Source: Podarcis filfolensis
Taxonomy: Eukaryota
Strand: one strand, 5' to 3'
DNA: 64,000 nucleotides
Assembly: GCA_964270895.1 (NCBI GenBank)
Contig: OZ185438.1
The first letter of the stretch is position 1. Every line of letters starts with the position of its first letter. Shown piece by piece: positions 2,270-48,200 of the stretch. Made by a program: the position numbers and the translations under genes. The notes below the pieces were generated by a model, which was given only the letters and a program-made list of their open reading frames with translations, was not told where the DNA came from and did no database searches.

Positions 2270-2378
2270 CTTTTTGCTCATATGGAACTACATTGCTATG
2301 AACATGGCATCCCTGAATTCCTGCATTAATCCAATTGCTCTCTATTGGGTGAGCAAAAGATTCAAAAACTGCTTTAAG
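2270..2378 (+). CDS. EDNRB: Endothelin receptor type B, penultimate coding exon (TM7 and helix 8)
   Basis: Acceptor ...ccccatgcag, donor AAG|gtaaga, 109 nt; translates (S)[36 protein letters not shown] with the ETB NSCINP motif; phase 0 joins the next exon. Confidence 0.93.
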
Positions 2379-2921
2379 GTAAGAAGTCTTTGTTGAAATG
2401 TGCTTTTCTAGAAATGAAGCCAGGCAGCATCAGGTTAAGGGAGAAATCCAAACCCAAGACCCACTGGGATGAGACCTTGAGGTGTGTCTGGGATAATGAA
2501 CTGGGCAGGTTTTGTTTCTGCTTAAGGGCGCTGGCAAACGAAATTATCAAGGTGTCTAGTGCAAATTCACCATATAAAAGTGTTCCTTCTTTGCACAGTT
2601 TCCACATGAATCAGCTGCTCTCTAGGGGCATCCCTAAGGACTACAACTGTGGTTGTCCCAATTGATTCCTTAGCACTGTCAACTTACAGCCTAGGAGGAG
2701 GGGACTCCTAACTCAATAGAGAGCACACATTTTCAAAACCTGGGATAAGAAAATTCAGGGAGAAAGAAGAGCCACAGAAGCAATTGGTTCTAGTTCTCCA
2801 GCAAGTCCACCTCCTACTTGGAGGACCAGTGAGGTAGACCATGGACTGGAGAGACTGAAGTGGTGTAGTGGTTAAGGGTGTTGGATGAGAAACTGCGAGA
2901 TCTGAGTTCAGGTCCTCACAA

Positions 2922-3282
2922 CTTGGCCTCAGTCCAGTATATCTGAAGGAGCGTTTCCACCCCCATCGTTCTACCCGGACACTGAGATCCAGCGCCGAGG
3001 GCCTTCTGGGGGTTCCCTCACTGCGAGAAGTCAAGTTACAGGGAACCAGGCAGAGGGCCTTCTTGGTAGTGGCGCCCGCCCTGTGGAACGCCCTCCCACC
3101 AGATGTCAAAAAGAACAACAACTACCAGACTTTTAGAAGACATCTGAAGGCAGCCCTGTTTTGGGAAGCTTTTAATGTTTGATGCATTACAGTATTTTAA
3201 TATTTTGTTGGAAGCCGCCCAGAGTGGCTGGGGAAGCCCAGCCAGATGGGCGGGGTATAAATAATAAATTATTATTATTATT
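2922..3282 (+). mobile_element. L2-clade LINE 3' end with (ATT)n tail, apparently inserted into a tRNA-derived SINE (head about 2845-2921)
   Basis: Same sequence as the 860-1206 copy in the opposite orientation; flanked by tRNA-SINE-like GGTGTAGTGGTTAAG...GAGTTCAGGTCC upstream and GGTGACCTTGGGCC downstream. Confidence 0.8.
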
Positions 3283-3392
3283 GGTGACCTTGGGCCCTGA
3301 GCCTAACTCTCCCTCACTGGGTGGATGCAATAAAATGGAGGAGGGGGGAACCATGCAACTTGGAGAAAAGTTAGGGTAGAAATGTAAACATA

Positions 3393-3651
3393 CCGTATTT
3401 TTTGCTGTATAAGACTCACTTTTTCCCTCCTAAAAAGTAAGGGGAAATGTGTGTGCATCTTATGGAGTGAATGCAGGCTGCGCAGCTATCCCAGAAGCCA
3501 GAACAGCAAGAGGGATTGCTGCTTTCACTGCACAGTGATCCCTCTTGCTGTTCTAGCTTCTGAGATTCAGAATTTTTTTTTTCTTGTTTTCCTCCTCGAA
3601 AAACTAGGTGCGTCTTGTGGTCTGGTGCTTCTTATAGAGCGAAAAATACGG
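3393..3651. mobile_element. Non-autonomous Tc1/mariner-superfamily (Tc2/pogo-like) MITE
   Basis: TA|CCGTATTTTT...AAAAATACGG|TA terminal inverted repeats with TA target duplication; near-identical inverted copy at 18972-19229. Confidence 0.85.
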
Positions 3652-3771
3652 TAAATAAATTGCAACCCTAAAAAATAGTTCTGAGTTTTTGGTCAGAAAT
3701 AGGTAGTAGGCATTCTCTATATTGAAGTGTTGCACCAAGCCTTCTAATAAGGGATTCTGCTCTCTTTCAAG

Positions 3772-3903
3772 TCATGTCTGTGTTGCTGGTGCCATTCGAA
3801 AGATATGCTGTCCCTGGATGAGAAGCAGTCCTGCTTAAAGTTCAGAGCCAATGATCACGGGTATGACAATTTCCGCTCCAGCAACAAGTACAGCTCGTCT
3901 TAA
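3772..3903 (+). CDS. EDNRB: Endothelin receptor type B, last coding exon (palmitoylated Cys cluster and C-terminal tail)
   Basis: Acceptor ctctctttcaag; translates [43 protein letters not shown], recognisably the ETB C-terminus; TAA at 3901-3903. Confidence 0.96.
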
Positions 3904-12304: not shown

Positions 12305-13623
12305 TATATATAGCGAAAATAACATATGCAAATATATCCTAATCCAGAGAAACTGGATGCAAAAATATGTAGTGGAAGCTGCGTCAAAAAGTGTTTATTA
12401 GGAGAAATTTGCACTAAAATGCTGAGGAGTTTTCATTATGGGTTTGGGGTTTTTTTCGGGGGGGGGAGGGAATCACAAATTACTGCAGAATGTAGAAAAC
12501 AGAATTTTAAGACTGGAAAAATTGGAAATTGAAAGAACCAACATTTATAGATCCTAGCATTAGTTTGGCCAGTTCAAGGAAGAACATACTTTATACTTTA
12601 TAGTATGATCTCCTTGTGTGGAAAAATCAAGAAATTTAAGAGGAAATACTTAATTCCTGACAGAAGAGATTTGAGGTGCAATTATTCTGAAGAGTTTGTC
12701 CCTGATGCTTTTATTTGCTGTTTTTATTCTTCTTCTAAATTGCTGCACATTTTATTGCAGTCTTTAAAAAAACAAACTTTGGTGCATCACTTAGCACTAG
12801 AACCTGTTTTCAGTCGAAGGATTATGTCTTAACACAATAATCAGTGCCTCTGAGCACACACAGAATAATCACAAAGAAACTACGATCAGCATCTGCGCAT
12901 CTGGCACTAAGGACAGGCCTACGTGGCCTCAGGATATGCTTTCCAGATAGCCTTGAGCTCAGACTCTTCTTCTAGAAATGTAAACATTTACACTGAATGT
13001 CATAAACCTAATCTACGTTTAAGAGCCTGTTACTGGGCACTTAAAGTTATTCCAAGTCGGGAAATAATGTTTGAAGAGATGTTGAAAGGGGGCAATTAGG
13101 ATTACAACATCGTGTTTCTGCTTTTCTAATATTTCCAGGACAGACGTGACCATTATAGAGGACGCTGCTTATTTTATGCCCTTCAAGAATACCCTGAACA
13201 CTTCTTAAAATATGTGCCATACTGCTGGTTTAATCCTTGTTCCCATTTCCTCAGCAGCTGTGGTTCTGTGGATGAGGATGAGAATTCCTTACCAGAATTC
13301 TCAGACACCTTGCAAGTGGTCTGAAATGCAAATATAGTAGACTATGTAGCTGAGCTGTGAATCAAAAGTCCTTGGTTTTAGTCTTACCTTTGCTGTGAAC
13401 TCACTAGCTGGCCTTAGGCAAGGAGCTAGTCCTCATCCTCAATCTCAACCTTCTCCCCACCAGCAATCTGGGATTTACTAATACTGCTGATTTCAACTGC
13501 TTAAACAATCAACATTTTCTAAAGCAGGTGTAATGCTGGTATTACTGCAGAGACAAAAATAATGACAACTTATTCTCTTTGTTCTGAATATCGCAGAATA
13601 TACAGAGAGTATCTGATTAAGTA

Positions 13624-14389
13624 CCGTATTTTTCGCCCCATAGGACGCACCGGCCCATAGGACGCATCAAGTTTTTTGGGGGGGAAATAAAGGAAAAAAA
13701 ATTTATTTCCCCCCCAGGCGCTTGTGGTGCCGGCAGCGGGGAGAAGCGCTTTTCTCCCCGCCGCCCGCCTTCAGACCAGGTTCGGGGACAGCGGGGAGAC
13801 GCGCTGCGCCTCCCCGCTGTCCCCGGAGCTTGCGGGGCAGGCAGCGGGGAGAAGCGCTCTTCTCCCTGCCGCCCACCTTCAGACCAGGTCCGGGGACAGC
13901 GGGGAGACGCGCTGCGCCTCCCAGCTGTCCCCGGAGCTTGCGGGACAGGCAGCGGGGAGAAGCGCTCTTCTCCCCGCCGCCCGCCTTTAGATCAGGTCCG
14001 GGGACAGCGGGGAGACGCGCTGCGCCTCCCAGCTGTCCCTGGAGCTTGCGGGGCAGGCAGCAGGGAGAAGCGCTCTTCTCCCCGCTGCCCGCCTTCAGAT
14101 CAGGTCCGGGGACAGCGGGGAGATGCGCTGCGCCTCCCCACTGTCCCCGGAGCTTGCGGGGCTGCCGGCGGGGTCTCCCCGCCGTCAGCCTCCAAACCAC
14201 TTTGGGAGACAGCGGGATGGCGGCGTTCCGCCTCCCTCTGTCCCCCGACCTTGTGGGGCTGGCGCTGGGGCTCTCCCCTCTCACTCTGCAGGCTTCAGCG
14301 AAAGCCTGCATTCGCCCTATAGGACGCACACACATTTCCCCTTCATTTTTGGAGGGGGAAAAGTGCGTCCTATAGAGCGAAAAATACGG
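13624..14389. mobile_element. Tc2/pogo-like MITE with an internal GC-rich minisatellite
   Basis: TA|CCGTATTTTTCG...CGAAAAATACGG|TA termini. Confidence 0.85.
13733..14162. repeat. Minisatellite, 4 x 108 bp
   Basis: Unit starts GCAGC(G/A)GGGAGAAGCGC at 13733, 13841, 13949 and 14057. Confidence 0.9.
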
Positions 14390-14541
14390 TAAGTAAGGCA
14401 ACTCCCATCTCCTAGATAACTGGTCCCTAAAATTATCCAACCTCATTTTTACAGCTGAAGTTGCACAGTATTCTCCAGTATGGTGAGACATTTACTGTAT
14501 TTACAGTAATTACTTCTAAATTTGCATCTATCAGTCTAAAG

Positions 14542-27569: not shown

Positions 27570-29001
27570 GTCTACAATGACTGGCAGCAGTTCTCCAGGG
27601 TTCCAGACCTGAACCAGAGACACTCAAGCTTTGTCCTGCAGCCAGCTGCAGTTTGTGATGCGCTCACTGCTACAGCCCCACAGATTTCCTTCTTGCACAC
27701 CTAGACGGCACACGGATGCTGGACTCAAAGCAGCATGGCACCCCTCAATCAATCCAGCACAGCCACTTCCTCTTAAATCCTGGGAACCACTCTTTGCTTC
27801 TTTGGGTTTTCAGCAGTTGATGTGTATGCTCCAACATTTCCCAAGAGGAATTTGGGGCATCCCGCAACACCATCCCACCCCCTGCCACCTCTTGCCTGCT
27901 CACTCCCCCGCCCAACACTGCCACCGCTTGTCCCCGGCACCTTACATTGGGCACCTCTCTCTCTCTCTCTCTCTCCACCACCCTCTGTGGTCTGCAGTTG
28001 CAGGCGGAGGCTGTGGCACAGCAGAGGAGGCAAAGACTTCAGCGCACTGGAGGTGCATCATCGGAAAAGCCAGCAGCCTCAGTCCTAGGCTGCACCACCG
28101 CCTGCAGGGAGGCCATAGCGCAGCAGTGACGGTGTTGGCCAAAACAGGGCATCTAGGATTACTTTCAGAAGCTTCTGTAAACCCAGGATGTCCTGGTAAA
28201 ATCAGGACCATTAGGCGGCATGGTTGTTGATGACACTTTGGGGCAATTTTGCAGTCTGCAACTCTTTCCAGCATCGTCCAATCACTCTCCAACCTCTTCT
28301 GATGACTCTCCAAAACTCCTCCACGACCTTCTCCATCTCCTCCGCAAATCCCTCCAGTCTCCTCCAATGACTCTTCAACCTCCTCCGCAACTCTCCCTGG
28401 GCTCCCCTGCATTTCTCCAAACTCTCTCCGAACATCTCTGATCTCTCTGCAATCTCCTCCGCGCTCTCTCCACATTCCATCGACTCTCCAACCGCACCTA
28501 AACACTTGCCCAATAGCTCATGGGATTGCAGGATGCTTTTTCTTGTTCTGCCACCCTCAACATTTATTTATTTTATGGCAATCTGCACAACGCTGCGACC
28601 ACATAAGTGAAACTTGCATAAGATTAGAAATACATAATCCTTTTGGGAGAAAAACTTTCCCTTGAAAGAAACCATGGTTGTTGTTGTTGTTGTTGTTGTT
28701 TGATTATGGCTTATTTCTTATTAAATTTATATTATTGTATAAGATGTTTAGTATAAAGTTTATACTGTGCTTAGCTGCCTTGTTGTACCGTAAATCCTTT
28801 ATGGAAAGAAAAGCCATATATAAATATTTTAAATAATATTTTTAAAATAATCTCTCCAGGCTTTTTAAAAACAATTTTACAAATGCAATTTTCTTCATAT
28901 GTAAACTATTTGAAGCTAACTACATTAAAGAAGGCTATCGTAATCTCCCCCCCCCCAACACACACACTGTAATTAGATAGCAACAAACCTTTGCAGGCAT
29001 T

Positions 29002-30029
29002 GTTGTTATTGTTTAGTCATTTAGTCGTGTCCGACTCTTCGTGACCCCTTGGACCAGAACACGCCAGGCACTCCTGTCTTCCACTGCCTCCCGCAGTTTG
29101 GTCAAACTGATGCTGGTAGCTTCAAGAACACTATCCAACCATCTCGTCCTCTGTCGTCCCCTTCTCCTTGTGCCCTCCATCTTTCCCAACATCAGGGTCT
29201 TTTCCAGGGAGTCTTTTCTTCTCATGAGGTGGCCAAAGTACTGGAGCCTCAGCTTCACGATCTGTCCTTCCAGTGAGCACTCAGGGCTAATTTCCTTAAG
29301 AATGGATAGGTTTGACCTTCTTGCAGTCCATGGGACTCTCAAGAGTCTCCTCCAGCACCATAATTCAAAAGCCAAAAGAGTGGCGAAAGCTGTACTGGGA
29401 TGCAATCTCAAAAATGATAGAATGATCTCGATATGAATCCAAGGCAGACCTTTTAACATCACAGTAATCCAAGTTTATGCACCAACTACTGGTGCTGAAG
29501 AAACTGAAATTGACCAATTCTATGAAGACTTACAACACCTTCTAGAAATGACACCAAAGAAGGATGTTCTTCTCATTATAAGGGATTGGAATGCTAAAGT
29601 AGGGAATCAAGAGATAAAAGGAACAACTGGCAAGTTTGGCCTTGGAAATAAAAACGAAGCAGGGCAAAGGCTAATAGAATTCTGTCAAGAGAACAAGCTG
29701 GTCATCACAAACACGCTTTTCCAACAACACAAAAGACAACTCTACACATGGACATCACCAGATGGACAGCATCGAAATCAGATTGATTATATTCTCTGCA
29801 GCCAAAGATGGAGAAGCTCTATACAGTCAGCAAAAACAAGACCTGGAGCTGACTGGCTCAGATCATCAGCTTCTTATAGCAAAATTCAAGCTTAAACTGA
29901 AGAAAGTAGGAAAAACCACTGGGCCAGTAAGATATAATCTAAATCAAAACCCTTATGAATACACAGTGGAAGTGAGGAACAGGTTTAAGAATTTAGATTT
30001 GGTGGACAGAGTGCCTGAAAAACTATGGA
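29002..30029. mobile_element. Rearranged Bov-B LINE: minus-strand 3' end (29002-about 29370) joined to a plus-strand endonuclease segment (about 29371-30029); 10-bp TSD
   Basis: FELWCWRRLLRVPW...KSRTRLND on minus; AVLGCNLKNDRMIS...VYAPTT...DWNAKVG...RNQIDYIL on plus; TGCAGGCATT at 28992-29001 and 30030-30039; empty site in unit C at about 32881. Confidence 0.9.
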
Positions 30030-31886
30030 TGCAGGCATTAACACTGTACAAATTGCTCTACAGTAACCATAAAATAGAACTAGTGGATCCAATTCTAGCT
30101 CTTTGTTTCATACAATAAGTAAGTATCAAAAGTGAACAAGGTGTGGCTCCTCAATTATAGTATCAAACAAAGATGATACATATACAGATGGTAATCTTAC
30201 CGAGGTCTTGCTTAGATGATTCATTAATTATGTCAGTGAGAAAGTACGGGGAAGTTTTTGCTTTCTCATGATTGGGCATTACATATAGATGTGAGCCTTA
30301 TAAAGCAGTGAAAAATCCTTGAGACATAGGTGACACAGTGCTAGTTCCATCTATGTCAAAACCAGTTCCATCCTGTTCTGACTGGCAGCAGTTCTCCAGG
30401 GTTCCAGACCTGAACCAGAAACACCCAAGATTTGTCCTGCGGCCGGCTGCAGTTAGTGATGCGCTCGCTGCCACAGCCCCACAAATTTCCTTCTCGCATA
30501 CCTAGATGGCACATGGATGCTAGACTCATTCTGGCCACGTTTATGTGCCACAGTACACAAAGACATGTCACCCCTCAATAAATCCAGCACAGCCACTTCC
30601 TCTTAAATCATGGGGACCACTCTTTGCTTCTTTGGGTTTTCAGCTGTTGATGTGCATGTTCCAACATTTCCCAAGAGGAATTTGGGGCATCCCGCAACAC
30701 CATCCCACCCCCTGCCACCTCTTGCCTGCTCACCCCCCCACCCCAACATTCCACCGCTTGTCCCTGGCACCTTACTTTGGGCACCTCTCTCTCTCTCTCT
30801 CCACCACCCTCTGTGTTCTGCAGCTGCAGGCGGAGGCTGTGGCACAGCAGAGGAGGCAAAGGCTTCAGCGCACCGGAGGTGCATCATTGGAAAAGCCAGC
30901 AGCCTCAGCCCTGGGCTGCGCCACCACCTGCAGGGAGACCATAGCGCAGCAGTGACGGTGTTGGCCAAAACACGACATCTAGGATAACTTTCAGAAGCCA
31001 GGGCGGCTTCTGTAAACCCAGGATATCCCGGTAAAATCAGGAACGTTAGATGGCATGGTTGTTGATGACACTTTGGGGCAATTTTGCAGTCTGCAACTTT
31101 CTCCAGCATCGTCCAATCACTCTCCAACCTCTTCTGATGACTCTCCAAAACTCCTCCACGGCTCTCTCCATCTCCTCCGCAAATCCCTCCAATCTTCTCC
31201 AATGACTCTTCAACCTCCTCCGCAGCTCTCCCTGGGCTCCCCTGCATTTCTCCAAACTCTCTCCGAAGACCTCTGATCTCTCTGCAATCTCCTCCGCGCG
31301 CTCTCCTCATTCCATCGACTCTCCAACCACACCTAAACACTCGCCCAATGGCTGATGGGAATGCAGGGTGCTTTTTCTTGTTCTCCCACCCTCGACATTT
31401 ATTTATTTTATGGCAATCTGCACAACGCTGCGACCACATAAGTGAAATCTGCATAAGATTAGAAATATAGTACATAATCCTTTAGGGAGAAAAATTTTCC
31501 CTTGAAAGAAACCATGTTGTTGTTGTTGTTGTTGTTGATTTTGCTGTTGTTGTTTGATTATGGCTATAAAATGTTTAGTGTTGTTTGATTATTGTATAAA
31601 ATGTTTAGCATAGAGTTTATACTGTGCTTAGCTGCCTTGTTGTAAATCCTTTATGGAAAGAAAAGCCATATATAAATATTTTAAATAATATTTTAAAAAT
31701 AATCTCTCCTGGCTTTTTAAAAATAATTTTACAAATGCAATTTTCTTCATATGTAAAGTATTTGAAGCTAACTACATTAAAGCAGGCTATCGTGATCTTG
31801 TCCCCCCCACACACAGACACTGTGATTAGATAGCAACAGACCTTTACACTGTACAAATTGCTCTACAGTAACCATCAAATAAAATA

Positions 31887-37732: not shown

Positions 37733-38250
37733 AGACATAAAGGTTATCAAGATATAAATAAAATTGATTTTTAAAACAAATACACAAAACAAAATTACAT
37801 GTCTGAGCAGGCTTGCCTAACAAAACATTTTTAGCTGGCATCCAAAACAATACAGTGAAGGCACCTGTCCAGCACTTTATTATAAAGGACCTCTTACAAT
37901 GTAGCCTTAATCATGTTTACTCAGTAGTAAGTCACTCTTAGTTCAATGGGACTCTCAGGTTAGAATGGGCACTTTGAGTGCAGTCCCAACTCCTGCTACC
38001 TACCGGGGGGATTTGTGGAGCAACAGAGCCACAGTCGCATCGACAACTCTGCCACTCATTGCAATTATGGTGGAAGGTGGTTGGGTGGGACAAGTGGACC
38101 TGAATTGGGGTCCAATGCAGTCCCGCCACAGCTGTGAGACTGGCTCAGCCCTGCCCCTTCCCTGACTTTTGGGGGCTCTCCGCTGGCCCCTGTAAATGGG
38201 GGTACTGTCAGTTGGCCTCTCAACTACCCACACATTTTGAAGGTCACTAA

Positions 38251-38607: not shown

Positions 38608-38722
38608 CAATGAAGAACTAACCCCCCCCCTACCCAGCCATGTGTTGAGGGTGGTGCTTGTAGTTCTGATGGACAAAAGCAGTGATCCATTTCTATTTTA
38701 AATGCCCTTTTTATCTTTACAG

Positions 38723-39302
38723 CCTTTTGAAAGTTTCTGGCTTAGAACTGTCAGAGGAAATGCCCTTCTTCCTCAAAAAACTATGTCCGAAAGAAGGCTT
38801 CCAAGAACATTTTGACAACACAAAATTACGCAAAAAAACATTACTATTGTTTAGTTTTAAAAAGGAAGAAAACCCGATTTGGGAAATATGGGGCCATGCG
38901 TACAATGATCCTGGTGACAAGCATGCTGAAGTTTTAGTTTTAGATTATATTAAAGACCAAATCGCAGAAAACATAACCAAAGGAAAATATGAACTGAACT
39001 TTTTTGTGTCATACACCCCTTGCCATGAATGCAGTGACAGGATAAAGTCTTTTATGGAAAAAAACAGTGGAATATGCATGGAAATAAAAGCTTCGAGGCC
39101 ATATTATTTTAACAGAGAAGGAGAACGAAAAGGTCTACACCTTCTGAAGAGCTCTGGGGTTTCGATTAAAATGATGAACAAATCTGATTATGAAGAATGC
39201 TTTGCTCTATTTGTACACCCATCAGAAAACTTTACACCATGGTCAAATCTGGATGAACAAAGCAAGGAGAATGCAGATGATCTGGACACACTTTTGAAAC
39301 AG
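38723..39302 (+). CDS. AID/APOBEC-family cytidine deaminase, catalytic exon (whole Z domain); in-frame ATG at 38760
   Basis: Acceptor ttttatctttacag, donor CAG|gtaaaa. FQEHFDN, RKKTLLLF, HAE (38922), SYTPCHEC (PC at 39018), EIKASRPYY, GLHLLKSSGVSIKMM..DYEECFALFV and FTPWSNLDEQS match the AID/APOBEC fold in order; no stops or frameshifts. Confidence 0.92.
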
Positions 39303-39508
39303 GTAAAAGGGAGGTGGAGGCATTGCAAAACTTTGACCCAGATCATAAATGATAAAATGATACACAAATTTTGTTGGGTTGTAGAAGGACAGAGGGCCTT
39401 CCAAATGCTCCTTCTAAGGAAAATCCACCAAGTGGACTTCCACTCAGTTCTAAGAATGATAAAAAACCCTTCTCAACCTTTTGGTTCTGCATTGTCCCAG
39501 ATACAGTA

Positions 39509-39758
39509 CAGTCGTACCTTGGTTTTCGAACAGCTTAATTCTTGAACGTTTTGGCTCCCAAATGCCACAAACCTGGAAGTGACTGTTCTAGTTTGCCAAC
39601 TATTTTTGGAAGCCGAACGTCCGACGGGGCGTCCGCGGCTTCTGATTGGCCGCAGGAGCTTCCTGCAGCCAATCAGAAGCAGCGCTTTGGTTTCCAAACA
39701 TTCTGGAAGTCGAACAGACTTGCGGAACAGATTCTGTTCGACTTCCAAGGTATGACTG
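39509..39758. mobile_element. Mariner-type MITE in the deaminase intron
   Basis: TA|CAGTCGTACCTTGG...CCAAGGTATGACTG|TA. Confidence 0.85.
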
Positions 39759-41130
39759 TACAATATTTCCTGTAGGTGCAGATCTATCATTTGCTTTGCA
39801 ACACAATTGGAAGCTTACTAAGTTTATTATTAGTTTGCCTTAAATTTCAACCAGGTTTATATGAAACACACACAAACAGAAAATCTATTTCACTTTGAAT
39901 GTAAATTATTATGTTATCAGTGTTAAACACTGATAAAGTACCTAAAGTTTTCTAAGAACTGGAGAGTGCCATCTATTTATAAATTAAATGCAAGCAGTTC
40001 ATATAAAGTACAGGAAACATTTTGAGAGTGGCACGTTTCCTTGTATACAGTGTTGCTAAAATGATGGCGAATAAGGTTCCTGGGATTAGAGCTGGAAAGG
40101 GAGGGTTCAAATCTGCTAGTTTTACTTTCTCATTTTTCTAAATCTTATCTCAGTTCACCCCATATGTACATCAGCTTGCTTTTAAAGAATTAAAGTCCAC
40201 ACAATATCCATACATTTCCATGTGCGTTTGTTCTATTTTGCCTAATATAAGCATTTTTTGCAAGCCATTTCCCCTAATATAATGCATTTTTGCACTTTAT
40301 TTCTACTAATATATTAATTTGTGTGTATCCCCCCCCTCATGTATGCATTTTCTGTTGGAGAATTGCACTGCAGATTTCAATATGTGGGAATGTTGAAGGA
40401 AATCTACATTTAGGTTTGTGTATCACTTTGGGATGTGCAAAGTGAACCAGATTAATTTCTCCCCCACAATCTGTTTTTCATATGCATGAACAAAACTGGC
40501 CAACCCTAAACTGCATGCATGTTCAGAATTGCATGGACAAATGTTAATATGAACCAGGTCCTACAACATGGATTTTGCCACAGCAAATTTAATGACAGCT
40601 GGAAAAAGAGCTACCACAATTACTGTAATATTATGTTTCAGGAAGTGAGAATTTGATAGATTGGCCTTTAAATGCAAACTGAATAGAATTTCTCTCCCAT
40701 ACCTAGTCAAGGATGATGGGATTTGTAGTTCAAAACATCTGGAGGGTTTCACGTCAGCTAGCCCTGTGCTACAGTCTTGGCTTATTTATGCTTTTATGTG
40801 TGTACTATATCAATCTGTTTAATGTTCAGCAACAAGTCAATTTTATACTGTAAAATTCAGTTGTATGGTAACATACAGAGGAGATTATGGACTCAAAATA
40901 CAGCATTATAAATGTGTTATAACACAGTGACACCAGATGAAATTGCAACTCAATGATATTTTGAATTGTGAGCTTTACAATGGTTTTTTGCAGAGCATGT
41001 AAATAGTGTTTTTTAATAGCTGTGTAGATCTAGCCTATGCTAGCCATATATCTTCACGAATGCTTCAACTTAACCAGTGGTCTCTTTATAGTCCTCTTCC
41101 CCAACTTGTGTTATTGTTTTTTTACCCCAG

Positions 41131-41173
41131 GAGGAAGAAAATGACAAAATGATTGATTCAGACAGCATTTCAG
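41131..41173 (+). CDS. APOBEC-like deaminase, 43-nt internal exon (EEENDKMIDSDSIS)
   Basis: Acceptor gttttttttaccccag, donor CAG|gtaatg; phase 0 in matches the catalytic exon and phase 1 out matches the next exon. Confidence 0.78.
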
Positions 41174-41407
41174 GTAATGTCAACAGTATATTAAATTTAA
41201 TAGAAACTCAGTGTGCTGTATCCAGTGGTGTCCTTAGAGCTGACAACAGTTCTTAGATCCAGTGATGGCTTTCCTCAGAACAATGGGGAGGGTGAGAATT
41301 TTTGCCAGTTTCCCCTCTCTCCCAGACAGCTCCCCCTGACCCTCTTGAGCTCATGTTAGGGGAACATTGGGTGCTGCAGGGAGTTACACTGAGAGAACAC
41401 TCTACTA

Positions 41408-41543
41408 CAGGCATGGCCAAACTTGGACCTTCAGATGTTTTGGGACTACAACTTCCATTATCCCTAGCTAACAGGACCAGTGGTCAGGGATGATAGGAAT
41501 TGTAGTCCCAAAACATCTGGAGGGCCAAGTTTGGCCATGCCTG
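41408..41543. mobile_element. hAT-like palindromic MITE with 8-bp TSD
   Basis: CTCTACTA at 41400-41407 and 41544-41551; CAGGCATGGCCAAACTTGG TIR. Confidence 0.88.
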
Positions 41544-41688
41544 CTCTACTAGATCAAAGAGCTGTCGGTATGGAGGACACCACTGGACACTGGGGTCTGA
41601 TGAAACTTAAAGAATCAAGCCTTCAGAACATTTTATTTCCCAAAGTTCAAAATGTGATTGTAACAAGTTGTTTTAAAAATAATTTTAG

Positions 41689-41879
41689 CTCGTACAACAC
41701 AACTTGGTGCCCAAGAAAATTCCAAACCAGATCTTCCTTTGGATGGTCACTGTCAATCACCAGCAATGAAAAGAAATCAGCTATCAGAACCAGAGACTCC
41801 TCAGAAATTGAACCGTTCTCCTGGAACAAGAGAAGCGGTCTCAGGAATTAAAAGAAAACTTGATTTCCCAGAAGACTAG
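41689..41879 (+). CDS. APOBEC-like deaminase, last coding exon (S/T-P-rich tail ending KRKLDFPED*)
   Basis: Acceptor aataattttag; phase 1 continues open for 62 codons to TAG at 41877-41879: (A)RTTQLGAQENSKPDLPLDGHCQSPAMKRNQLSEPETPQKLNRSPGTREAVSGIKRKLDFPED. Confidence 0.72.
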
Positions 41880-47099: not shown

Positions 47100-48200
47100 A
47101 AGGAAAAGCGGGGCAGATCAGAAACCGCGACGGTTTCTGGAAAAATAGGGGCACTTGGAGGGTCTGTGCTTATAGGACACAGTATTTCCTACTCGGGGCG
47201 GTAAGGTCACAACACAAAGCCGACGCGCTCGCTTCGCACAACGAAGATCAGGAGCAACGCGCCGGCCTTTTCCCGCCGGCCAAGTCCCCTCACACTCTCC
47301 CGCCTTTTTCCTACTCTGTCCCCCGCCCCCCACTCCCTCCTTATTGGCCGCCCGACTGTTTTCCCGCCCAGTCAGAGAACCTCTGTCAGGGCCTCCCGCC
47401 AATGGGCGCCCAGCTCGATGAAGCAAACCGCTTCCCTCCTCCCGCCCCTCCCGCAAGGGAGGGGGAGAGAGAGGGAAACGGACTAAGGGAGGCGAGAGGG
47501 AAGTGACTTCACAATGGCGCTCTCCCCCCCAATCACAAAGGCGGCTGGGCCGCGGCCCAATGGGAGCAAGGCCGCGTTTCGCCCTGCACCCAATGGGAGC
47601 GCCGCAGCAGCAGCCCGGCGTCGGCAGGAGGCGGGCGGTAGGGGGGGCGTCTGTGTTGCCGGCAGGGGCGGGGAGAAGTTCACCAGAAGCGCGGCGGCGG
47701 CGGCGGCTCCGCCTCCCTGTGGTCGGTGCGCGGCCTGGAGACCCCGCCTCCTGCCTCCCTCCTCCCTCCTCCCTGCCCGGCTGGCCTCTCTCTCTCTCTC
47801 AGGCAGCCATGGCGGCGGCGGAGCAGGAGCAGCAGCAGTTCTACCTTCTCCTAGGCAACCTGCTCAGCCCGGACAATGTCGTCCGGAAACAGGCCGAGGT
47901 GACTGGCGGCTTCGCGTTGTTTCGCCCCCCCCCCCGGTTCCCCGCTCTCCCTTTCCCGCCGGCTCCAGCCTCGGCCGACCGCGCTCTCCGGACCCGGCCT
48001 TGCCCTGTCAGCCTCCCAGCGCCGTGTGTGTGTGTGTGTCTCGGCGTGCGCGCCGGGGCGGCCCTGGCGGGGCCCACGTGCTCCGGCCGGAATCTCCACA
48101 GACGGGGCCGGCGGCCGTTAAAGCCGTTGGCCGGGGGGCGTTTCGGCCACCAACCGCCCTTCCCCCCCCCCACACACAAAGCCCCCCCCCCCCGGCGGCA
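47100..48200 (+). promoter_or_regulatory. CpG island and IPO5 promoter with CCAAT boxes, GC boxes and an ETS site
   Basis: High GC and CpG; ATTGG 47343; CCAAT 47399, 47529, 47557, 47590; GGAAGTG 47499; several GGGCGG/CCGCCC. Confidence 0.85.
47809..47898 (+). CDS. IPO5: Importin-5, first coding exon
   Basis: GCAGCCATGG Kozak; [30 protein letters not shown]; donor GAG|gtgact. Confidence 0.96.

What the first reader, a model, noticed from the sequence alone, without database searches (positions are those of the whole stretch)
38723..41879. Intact, divergent AID/APOBEC-family deaminase gene at a non-canonical locus
Seen: three phase-consistent exons (580, 43 and 191 nt) encode about 258 aa from ATG 38760, with H-A-E-x29-P-C-H-E-C and all flanking fold motifs intact. 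Substrate-loop motifs are atypical: SYTPC instead of SWSPC, ASRPYY instead of ARLY, and a short loop 1 (FDNTKLRKKT). The whole domain is on one exon, as in APOBEC2/4 and unlike AID. Knowledge: AID/APOBEC1, APOBEC2, APOBEC3 (CBX6-CBX7) and APOBEC4 do not lie next to EDNRB or IPO5 in mammals. Non-mammalian clades (APOBEC5, NAD1/NAD2, SNADs) are described but functionally little studied. No signal peptide is apparent, arguing against SNAD, and NAD1-like is my best guess. Inference: a reptile DNA/RNA editor, potentially restricting viruses or retroelements, with new sequence preference and possible base-editor value.
Basis: partly seen in the sequence, partly recalled or inferred. Interest (0 to 1): 0.85.

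Follow-up and report, generated by a model that had tools for sequence, protein, structure and literature searches.

The report
Lizard APOBEC5 with cyclin-docking tail
This is the wall-lizard copy of APOBEC5, a known but little-studied DNA-mutating enzyme, and its tail carries a conserved pair of motifs that likely puts it under control of the cell-division kinases, much as with the antiviral protein SAMHD1.

Summary
The three exons and the 258-aa protein are real. Contigs of two runs from relatives join the exons with exactly the expected 44 letters between the laid pieces. The gene is the lacertid orthologue of NAD1, which is the same gene as APOBEC5/UA2: one Tasmanian-devil accession defines both names. 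Its 'atypical' loops are normal for this clade; devil A5, a DNA mutator in a 2025 preprint, has SYSPC and ARPYYF. So the gene is not new. Two things go beyond the papers I could read. (1) The unexplained tail motifs read as a CDK site (TPQK) and a cyclin-docking RxL motif (IKRKLDF). Both occur in 26 of 30 clade proteins tested, 17-19 residues apart in 24. A model docks the tail on the cyclin A2 patch (0.87, best control 0.05), possibly from memory of solved peptides. (2) The domain evolves fast: 81% identity to Lacerta against 97% for APOBEC2, with loop 1 most variable. Positive selection is not shown. Activity, target and regulation of the lizard enzyme are untested.

The parts
38723..39302 (+). 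Exon with 37 nt before ATG 38760 and the whole deaminase domain (181 codons)
   Evidence: covered by contigs
38814..38840 (+). Loop 1 (D19-T27); 7 of 9 positions vary among 6 lacertid sequences
38922..39032 (+). Zinc site: H55, catalytic E57, C88, C91
   Evidence: invariant in 28 of 28 rows of A2
39096..39110 (+). End of strand 4 and loop 7, RPYYF; R113 and Y115 correspond to A3A R128 and Y130 (by alignment); same five residues in devil A5
41131..41173 (+). 43-nt exon, acidic linker
   Evidence: 44-letter gap in two contigs
41689..41879 (+). Last coding exon, tail to TAG; 3' UTR runs on to at least 42150 on the same contig
41796..41807 (+). T232-P-Q-K, full CDK consensus site (phosphorylation inferred)
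41847..41867 (+). I249-K-R-K-L-D-F255, RxL cyclin-docking consensus (binding predicted)
2270..3903 (+). Last two exons of the upstream neighbour, an EDNRB-type gene (context only)
47809..47898 (+). First coding exon of the downstream neighbour IPO5 (context only)

Best explanation
This is the spliced, open-framed lacertid orthologue of APOBEC5/NAD1, likely a zinc-dependent C-to-U deaminase of single-stranded DNA that likely acts against retroelements and is predicted to be switched by cyclin-CDK through its tail. Shown: gene structure, intact zinc site, fold, orthology, conserved tail motifs, fast protein evolution. Inferred step 1 (about 0.8): H55/C88/C91 hold zinc, E57 shuttles the proton, and N49, R113 and Y115 hold the target C, as in APOBEC3A; marsupial orthologues mutate E. 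coli DNA. Inferred step 2 (about 0.6): IKRKLDF docks on the hydrophobic patch of cyclin A/E/B, and CDK1/2 phosphorylates T232 nineteen residues upstream, which changes activity, stability or location through the cell cycle. Inferred step 3 (about 0.5): the natural substrate is reverse-transcribed DNA of retroviruses or LINEs, and the switch spares host DNA in S phase. Likely preference is purine-C, as for AID (about 0.4).
For: Orthology: Pogona proteins of the same cluster as hit P0008 (P0016, P0017) stand in Krishnan's Fig. S7 NAD1; devil XP_003765824 is in that figure and is the A5 preprint's query. Tree: window nests with Pogona (98/89), and 26 NAD1/A5 rows form one side at 96/93 among 62 rows; grouping the lizards with APOBEC2 is rejected, p-AU 0.00025. 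37 of 39 capital letters of the S7 80% consensus are met. Activity: opossum A5 10.3-fold rifampicin mutation; both marsupial A5 cut HIV-dVif infectivity about 40%. Tail: both motifs in 26 of 30 proteins, spacing 17-19 in 24; shuffled tails 0.015-0.07%; 1 of 167 control AID/APOBEC tails, and that one looks like a fish NAD1 fragment. Of the 26: P-4 V/I/A in 25, P-3 K/R in 26, P-1 K/R in 24, the residues cyclins prefer in PMC12356897. SAMHD1's site is 592TPQK595. Model: score 0.87, best of 3 controls 0.05; runs agree in at least 78% of contacts; partner pLDDT at least 52; L253 and F255 touch cyclin residues 199-206 (MRAILVDW); the mark was reached by 51 of 78 solved and 2 of 108 mismatched microbial pairs, on eukaryotes by 71 of 105 and 2 of 126. 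Rate: A5 146 of 181 identical to Lacerta agilis against 97% for APOBEC2; to Varanus 56% against 91%.
Against: No reptile A5 assay was found in the held library. Marsupial restriction is modest, absent for MLV, not shown to need deamination, and comes from a preprint. Fewer than 15% of strict-consensus RxL peptides bound a cyclin in PMC12356897. RxL peptide-cyclin A2 complexes are solved, so the model may pass from memory; peptides and disordered chains are outside its calibration; it used P. muralis proteins (P0010, P0229), not the window's. The 30 tail sequences are related and partly near-copies. Opossum A5 has APQK at the main site. Lizard APOBEC1, present here too, already explains L1 editing in lizards. 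A rough whole-exon dN/dS is about 0.5 (22 of 33 changes, assuming X1 encodes a P0002-like protein), not above 1. Domain versus tail variability p = 0.08; substrate loops versus other loops p = 0.11.
Confidence: 0.6

Rival explanations
1. Active A5 deaminase whose KRKL is a nuclear import signal and whose TPxK is incidental; no cyclin docking.
For: KRKL is basic, and marsupial A5 is both nuclear and cytoplasmic. A bipartite pattern fits 7 of 25 tails.
Against: The monopartite pattern K(K/R)x(K/R) (recalled consensus) fits 0 of 25. The invariant tail columns are K235, R251 and L253, F follows in 26 of 26, and P-1 can be T or M. The two roles can overlap.
Confidence: 0.15
2. A5 acts on host nucleic acid (mRNA editing, gut or cell-cycle function) or without catalysis, like APOBEC2/4; fast change reflects relaxed constraint.
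For: Highest opossum expression is in colon; weak restriction; single copy here; dN/dS estimate below 1; UA2 under purifying selection.
Against: Marsupial A5 mutates DNA. The domain differs more than its own tail in all 3 lacertid pairs (19/181 vs 3/77, 21/181 vs 2/77, 33/181 vs 8/77), which relaxed constraint would not predict. Krishnan lists NAD1 among high-entropy clades.
Confidence: 0.2
3. A different clade (APOBEC2 paralogue, NAD2 or SNAD), or a decaying pseudogene.
For: Pfam's best score is APOBEC2 (149.6 vs NAD1 138.9). The strand-1 Cys listed for NAD1 is absent.
Against: These two Pfam models cross-score: gar, Pogona and coelacanth NAD1 also score best on APOBEC2. Tree test. True APOBEC2 lies on C6. 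Helices 5 and 6 are present and there is no hydrophobic N-terminus. Frame open in all lizard hits; spliced contigs. No SNAD or NAD2 rows were in the tree.
Confidence: 0.03

Closest known systems
APOBEC5 / NAD1 (Krishnan 2018) / UA2 (Ito 2020), e.g. devil XP_003765824, Pogona XP_020666510, Anolis XP_008105138
   Same: Single Z domain, MP[LF]xL start, short loop 1, W-x2-W-G-x-x-[YF]-N, S[YF][ST]PC, RPYYF (devil), long tail with PxK and KRKL; 87 of 181 domain identity to devil, 100 of 181 to Pogona.
   Different: Lizard traits: no strand-1 Cys, T for S before PC, two residues shorter between helix 2 and strand 3; FDN/YND for FNN/YNN. Not assayed in any paper found.
APOBEC3 and AID
   Same: Fold (TM 0.80-0.89), HxE/PCxxC, loop-7 aromatic; database names call the Podarcis protein 'APOBEC-3G/3H-like'.
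   Different: Separate clade, 22-29% identity in the fold search, single-exon domain, other locus, tail absent from those held.
SAMHD1 C-terminus and E2F1-type RxL motifs (works-like comparison only)
   Same: TPQK CDK site followed by a C-terminal cyclin A2 docking motif in a restriction factor; E2F1 VKRRLDL against IKRKLDF.
   Different: Unrelated proteins; SAMHD1's motif is an atypical VxLF; regulation is shown for SAMHD1 and only predicted here.
Lizard APOBEC1
   Same: Reptile DNA mutator with anti-LINE activity, also present in this genome.
   Different: Other clade and contig (C17).

Membership tests
AID/APOBEC | HxE...PCxxC zinc site on the five-strand, six-helix fold | tested here: met
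AID/APOBEC | Loop-3 Asn, basic residue ending strand 4, loop-7 aromatic | tested here: met
   N49, R113, Y115
AID/APOBEC | C-to-U deamination of single-stranded nucleic acid | not testable with these tools
   shown only for marsupial orthologues
NAD1/APOBEC5 | Groups with the sequences that define the clade | tested here: met
   26 rows at 96/93; with Pogona at 98/89; 97/50 when APOBEC4 was included
NAD1/APOBEC5 | 80% consensus of Krishnan Fig. S7 | tested here: met
   37 of 39 capitals, placed by eye; misses L40I and V249I
NAD1/APOBEC5 | Extended tail with PxK and KRKL; Cx2C; Cys in helix 5 | tested here: met
   77-aa tail, PQK, KRKL, C147
NAD1/APOBEC5 | FNN and YNN motifs (Table S1) | tested here: inconclusive
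   FDN and YND here; the figure's own members vary (devil FCN, Anolis YND) and its consensus reads FsN, aNp
NAD1/APOBEC5 | Cys in strand 1 (listed in Table S1; not treated as defining here) | tested here: not met
   L30 here. The authors' own Pogona and Anolis members lack it and the 80% consensus has 'h' there, so it cannot exclude lizards
NAD1/APOBEC5 | Preprint Z-domain consensus (>80%) | tested here: inconclusive
   All letters met except S to T before PC; first spacer 22 not 24 (devil itself 23)
NAD1/APOBEC5 | Shared synteny with marsupial or fish A5 | not testable with these tools
   no relatives' genomes are held; no paper found with IPO5
SNAD1/2 | Signal peptide; strands 6-7 instead of helices 5-6; C-CxxC-C cluster | tested here: not met
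   the upstream exon was not located
NAD2 | HY in loop 1, HLTNT in loop 3, amphibians only | tested here: not met
APOBEC2 | Clade membership | tested here: not met
   p-AU 0.00025; own APOBEC2 on C6
RxL cyclin-docking motif | Strict consensus and preferred flanks | tested here: met
   window matches; 17 of 30 match the strict form, others end at or just after F
RxL cyclin-docking motif | Measured cyclin binding and CDK phosphorylation | not testable with these tools
   model only

The most novel reading that the evidence does not exclude
APOBEC5/NAD1 is a cell-cycle-gated DNA mutator: a CDK site and a cyclin-docking RxL motif, kept at fixed spacing from fish to lizards and marsupials, let cyclin-CDK switch it, a layout reached independently by SAMHD1. 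In lacertids it is the working counterpart of APOBEC3, with loop 1 under arms-race or balancing selection.
Probability: 0.4. Interest if true: 0.72.

Novelty: new member of a known kind. Interest (0 to 1): 0.45.

Why it matters
The gene itself is ordinary for a lizard. The value lies in making an open question testable: the A5 preprint calls its two tail motifs critical and unexplained, and names no cyclin, CDK or RxL; nor does Krishnan's main text. Three point mutants in the existing marsupial constructs would test the idea, and it would fit the cell-to-cell changes in location reported there. If true, an AID/APOBEC enzyme has a built-in cyclin-CDK switch, which bears on how a nuclear DNA mutator is kept off replicating DNA. 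Joining the names NAD1, APOBEC5 and UA2 also joins two literatures; I found no held paper that does so.

Tried and rejected
Pfam top hit as a clade call: rejected, the APOBEC2 and NAD1 models cross-score on 9 of 9 test proteins. Upstream coding exon: the 50-aa extension of P0009/P0007 is frameshifted here; a search for the Zootoca MHRF exon found nothing; the 5' exon stays unlocated. The 'unique stretch' list was spoiled by loci of the gene itself and not used. Expression: no RNA holder is listed on record as RNA; tissue and level are unknown. Codon-level selection: no relative's DNA was available, only a rough estimate; the p-values are uncorrected, partly post hoc, on related sequences. X1 exon 1 differs at 33 of 574 letters against 13 of 463 in exon 3 plus UTR (p = 0.023); X10 37 of 487 against 21 of 373 (p = 0.27). 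Trees: 63 rows picked by me from 197 domains; APOBEC4 dropped as a long branch; outgroup labels A1, A3, AID and CDA are my reading of motifs, only APOBEC2 was checked by name. Severi 2011 is not held. Paper searches with no relevant hit; one search listed 20 of 417, none on A5 by title, none read. Earlier findings: none. Supplements of the A5 preprint are closed and could hold lizard sequences, motifs or synteny; Krishnan's supplement was cut and I read 4 of 50 parts.

Full report
1. Observation. Skipping exon 2 shifts the frame. Database proteins of Podarcis and Zootoca have the same length and tail. Laid contigs of two runs guessed to be RNA, from two organisms and studies, pass from 39299 to 41687 with 44 letters between, the number exon 2 predicts. 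One carries 32 further letters 5' of 38726, so a first exon probably lies upstream; I did not find it. M1 is the first residue in most lizard, frog, salamander and marsupial relatives. The genome holds one strong copy, plus separate AID, APOBEC1, APOBEC2 and APOBEC4 loci (AID, A1 and A4 named from recalled motifs).

2. Identity. Pfam cannot decide between APOBEC2 and NAD1. The papers can. Krishnan et al. 2018 (PMC5889660; main text parts 1-4 of 8, supplement parts 1, 22, 23, 24 of 50) list Pogona XP_020666510 and XP_020666509, Anolis, devil XP_003765824, opossum, frogs, gar and coelacanth in Fig. S7, NAD1. The Pogona proteins are in the cluster of my hit P0008. The APOBEC5 preprint (10.1101/2025.05.21.655229; parts 1-6 of 8, supplements closed) uses that same devil accession as its query, and its residue numbers fit P0022. 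Ito et al. (PMC6955324, three passages) equate UA2 with APOBEC5. So NAD1, APOBEC5 and UA2 are one gene. In a tree of 62 rows the window nests among lizards with Pogona (98/89), inside 26 NAD1/A5 rows (96/93); with APOBEC4 included that branch read 97/50. Joining the lizards to APOBEC2 is rejected. SNAD and NAD2 fail on features, not on the tree.

3. The 'atypical' loops are clade traits. Devil A5 has SYSPC, ARPYYF and a loop 1 of the same length. The preprint reports that opossum A5 raises rifampicin resistance 10.3-fold, that devil A5 has a hotspot at rpoB C1576 shared with AID, that both cut Vif-less HIV by about 40% and hardly affect MLV, and that opossum gammaretroviral fossils carry a GY-context signature of unknown authorship. 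With N49, R113 and Y115 in place, I infer an active ssDNA deaminase, perhaps preferring purine-C.

4. The tail. The preprint notes two conserved, unexplained motifs, PxK and KRKL. Read wider, they are [ST]-P-x-[KR] and [VIA]-K-R-K-L-x(0,1)-F. Both occur in 26 of 30 clade proteins tested; the four misses end in sequence unlike the last exon. T-to-R spacing is 17-19 in 24 of the 26 and 33 in two bichir-group fish. Shuffled tails give the pair in 0.015-0.07% (six tails, 20,000 shuffles each). Among 167 other AID/APOBEC proteins held, one has it, and it resembles the Gnathonemus NAD1 row. In Fig. S7, 16 of 19 rows show TPxK before the final motif by my reading. PMC12356897 (passages) gives the RxL consensus and measured preferences: A/V/I/C at P-4, K/R at P-3, R at P-2, R/K/Q at P-1, F last, acidic flank; the lizard motif fits every position and resembles E2F1's VKRRLDL. 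The same paper warns that under 15% of strict matches bind. PMC5993806 (passages) gives SAMHD1's CDK site as TPQK, phosphorylation of which turns off HIV restriction. That a docking motif works best some way C-terminal of the site is recalled, not checked. A model of P. muralis cyclin A2 (163-421) with the P. muralis tail (224-258) scored 0.87 against 0.05 for the best of 3 controls, with L253 and F255 on the MRAILVDW patch; runs agree in at least 78% of contacts, partner pLDDT at least 52. Such complexes are solved, so this shows likeness, not binding. A classical monopartite import signal fits 0 of 25 tails, a bipartite one 7 of 25. I found this reading in neither defining paper's main text nor in the four listings.

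5. Rate. Against Lacerta agilis the A5 domain is 81% identical and APOBEC2 97%; against Varanus 56% and 91%. Among six lacertid sequences 50 of 181 domain columns vary against 13 of 77 tail columns (p = 0.08); loop 1 varies at 7 of 9; substrate loops 13 of 25 against 37 of 156 for the rest (p = 0.007) but 9 of 30 for other loops (p = 0.11). Two database versions of the P. muralis protein differ at 7 sites, 3 in loops 1 and 3. One DNA run holds two contigs over 38651-38945 with 9 and 25 differences, at depths that sum to single-locus depth. A rough dN/dS is about 0.5. This is fast evolution, in line with Krishnan's high entropy for NAD1, and does not prove positive selection. Lizard APOBEC1 is a rival author of retroelement editing (PMC3880073, passages; PMC4866542, passages). 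PMC8201067 (passages) calls NAD1 uncharacterised as of 2021.

6. Locus. The gene lies between an EDNRB-type gene and IPO5. On the same contig SLAIN (+) and RAP2A (-) sit together 10.4 Mb away. Against the human order SLAIN1-EDNRB...RAP2A-IPO5 (recalled) this suggests an inversion with one end near the gene. Whether this is A5's usual place I could not test; the ball-python EDNRB preprint had no hit for the terms tried.

7. Verdict. A real, ordinary orthologue of a known clade whose marsupial members have been assayed once. The tail module is a specific, cheap-to-test idea for the whole clade and lifts the score to 0.45.

Noticed in passing
window 2270-3903 and 47809-47898; G000:C4:10.58-10.69 Mb: EDNRB-type gene sits next to A5 and IPO5, while SLAIN and RAP2A sit together 10.4 Mb away: likely an inversion relative to the recalled human order, with a breakpoint between 3903 and 47809.
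   Followed up: partly
window 2270-2378: The EDNRB-type exon reads WNYIAM and LYWVS where the human receptor is recalled to have LDYIGI and LYLVS; possibly altered ligand contact. Three endothelin receptor loci exist (C4, C9, C20).
   Followed up: no
window 38651-38945 (run X21): Two contigs with 9 and 25 differences from the window cover the 5' part of the domain exon: possibly deeply diverged alleles, or a paralogue.
   Followed up: partly
Pfam PF18772 and PF18778: The APOBEC2 and NAD1 models cross-score; known NAD1 proteins often score best on APOBEC2, and true APOBEC2 scores 175-195 bits on NAD1.
   Followed up: yes
P0020 (coelacanth): Two tandem NAD1 domains in one protein model, like double-domain APOBEC3.
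   Followed up: no
P0029, P0037, P0023: Unnamed, tail-less, divergent NAD1-like proteins at the base of the clade or beside lizards; P0037 lacks the WxxWG strand motif.
   Followed up: no
window 37966-38080: Source of the 50-aa N-terminal extension in Podarcis models P0009/P0007; frameshifted here, so probably a misprediction.
   Followed up: yes
window 13621-14491: GC-rich tandem array with open frames on both strands; CpG-rich.
   Followed up: no
window 27600-28700 and 30500-31550; 29000-30100; 1-590: Two similar copies of a ~1 kb segment flanking a broken LINE-like endonuclease fragment; a reverse-transcriptase-like fragment at the window start.
   Followed up: no
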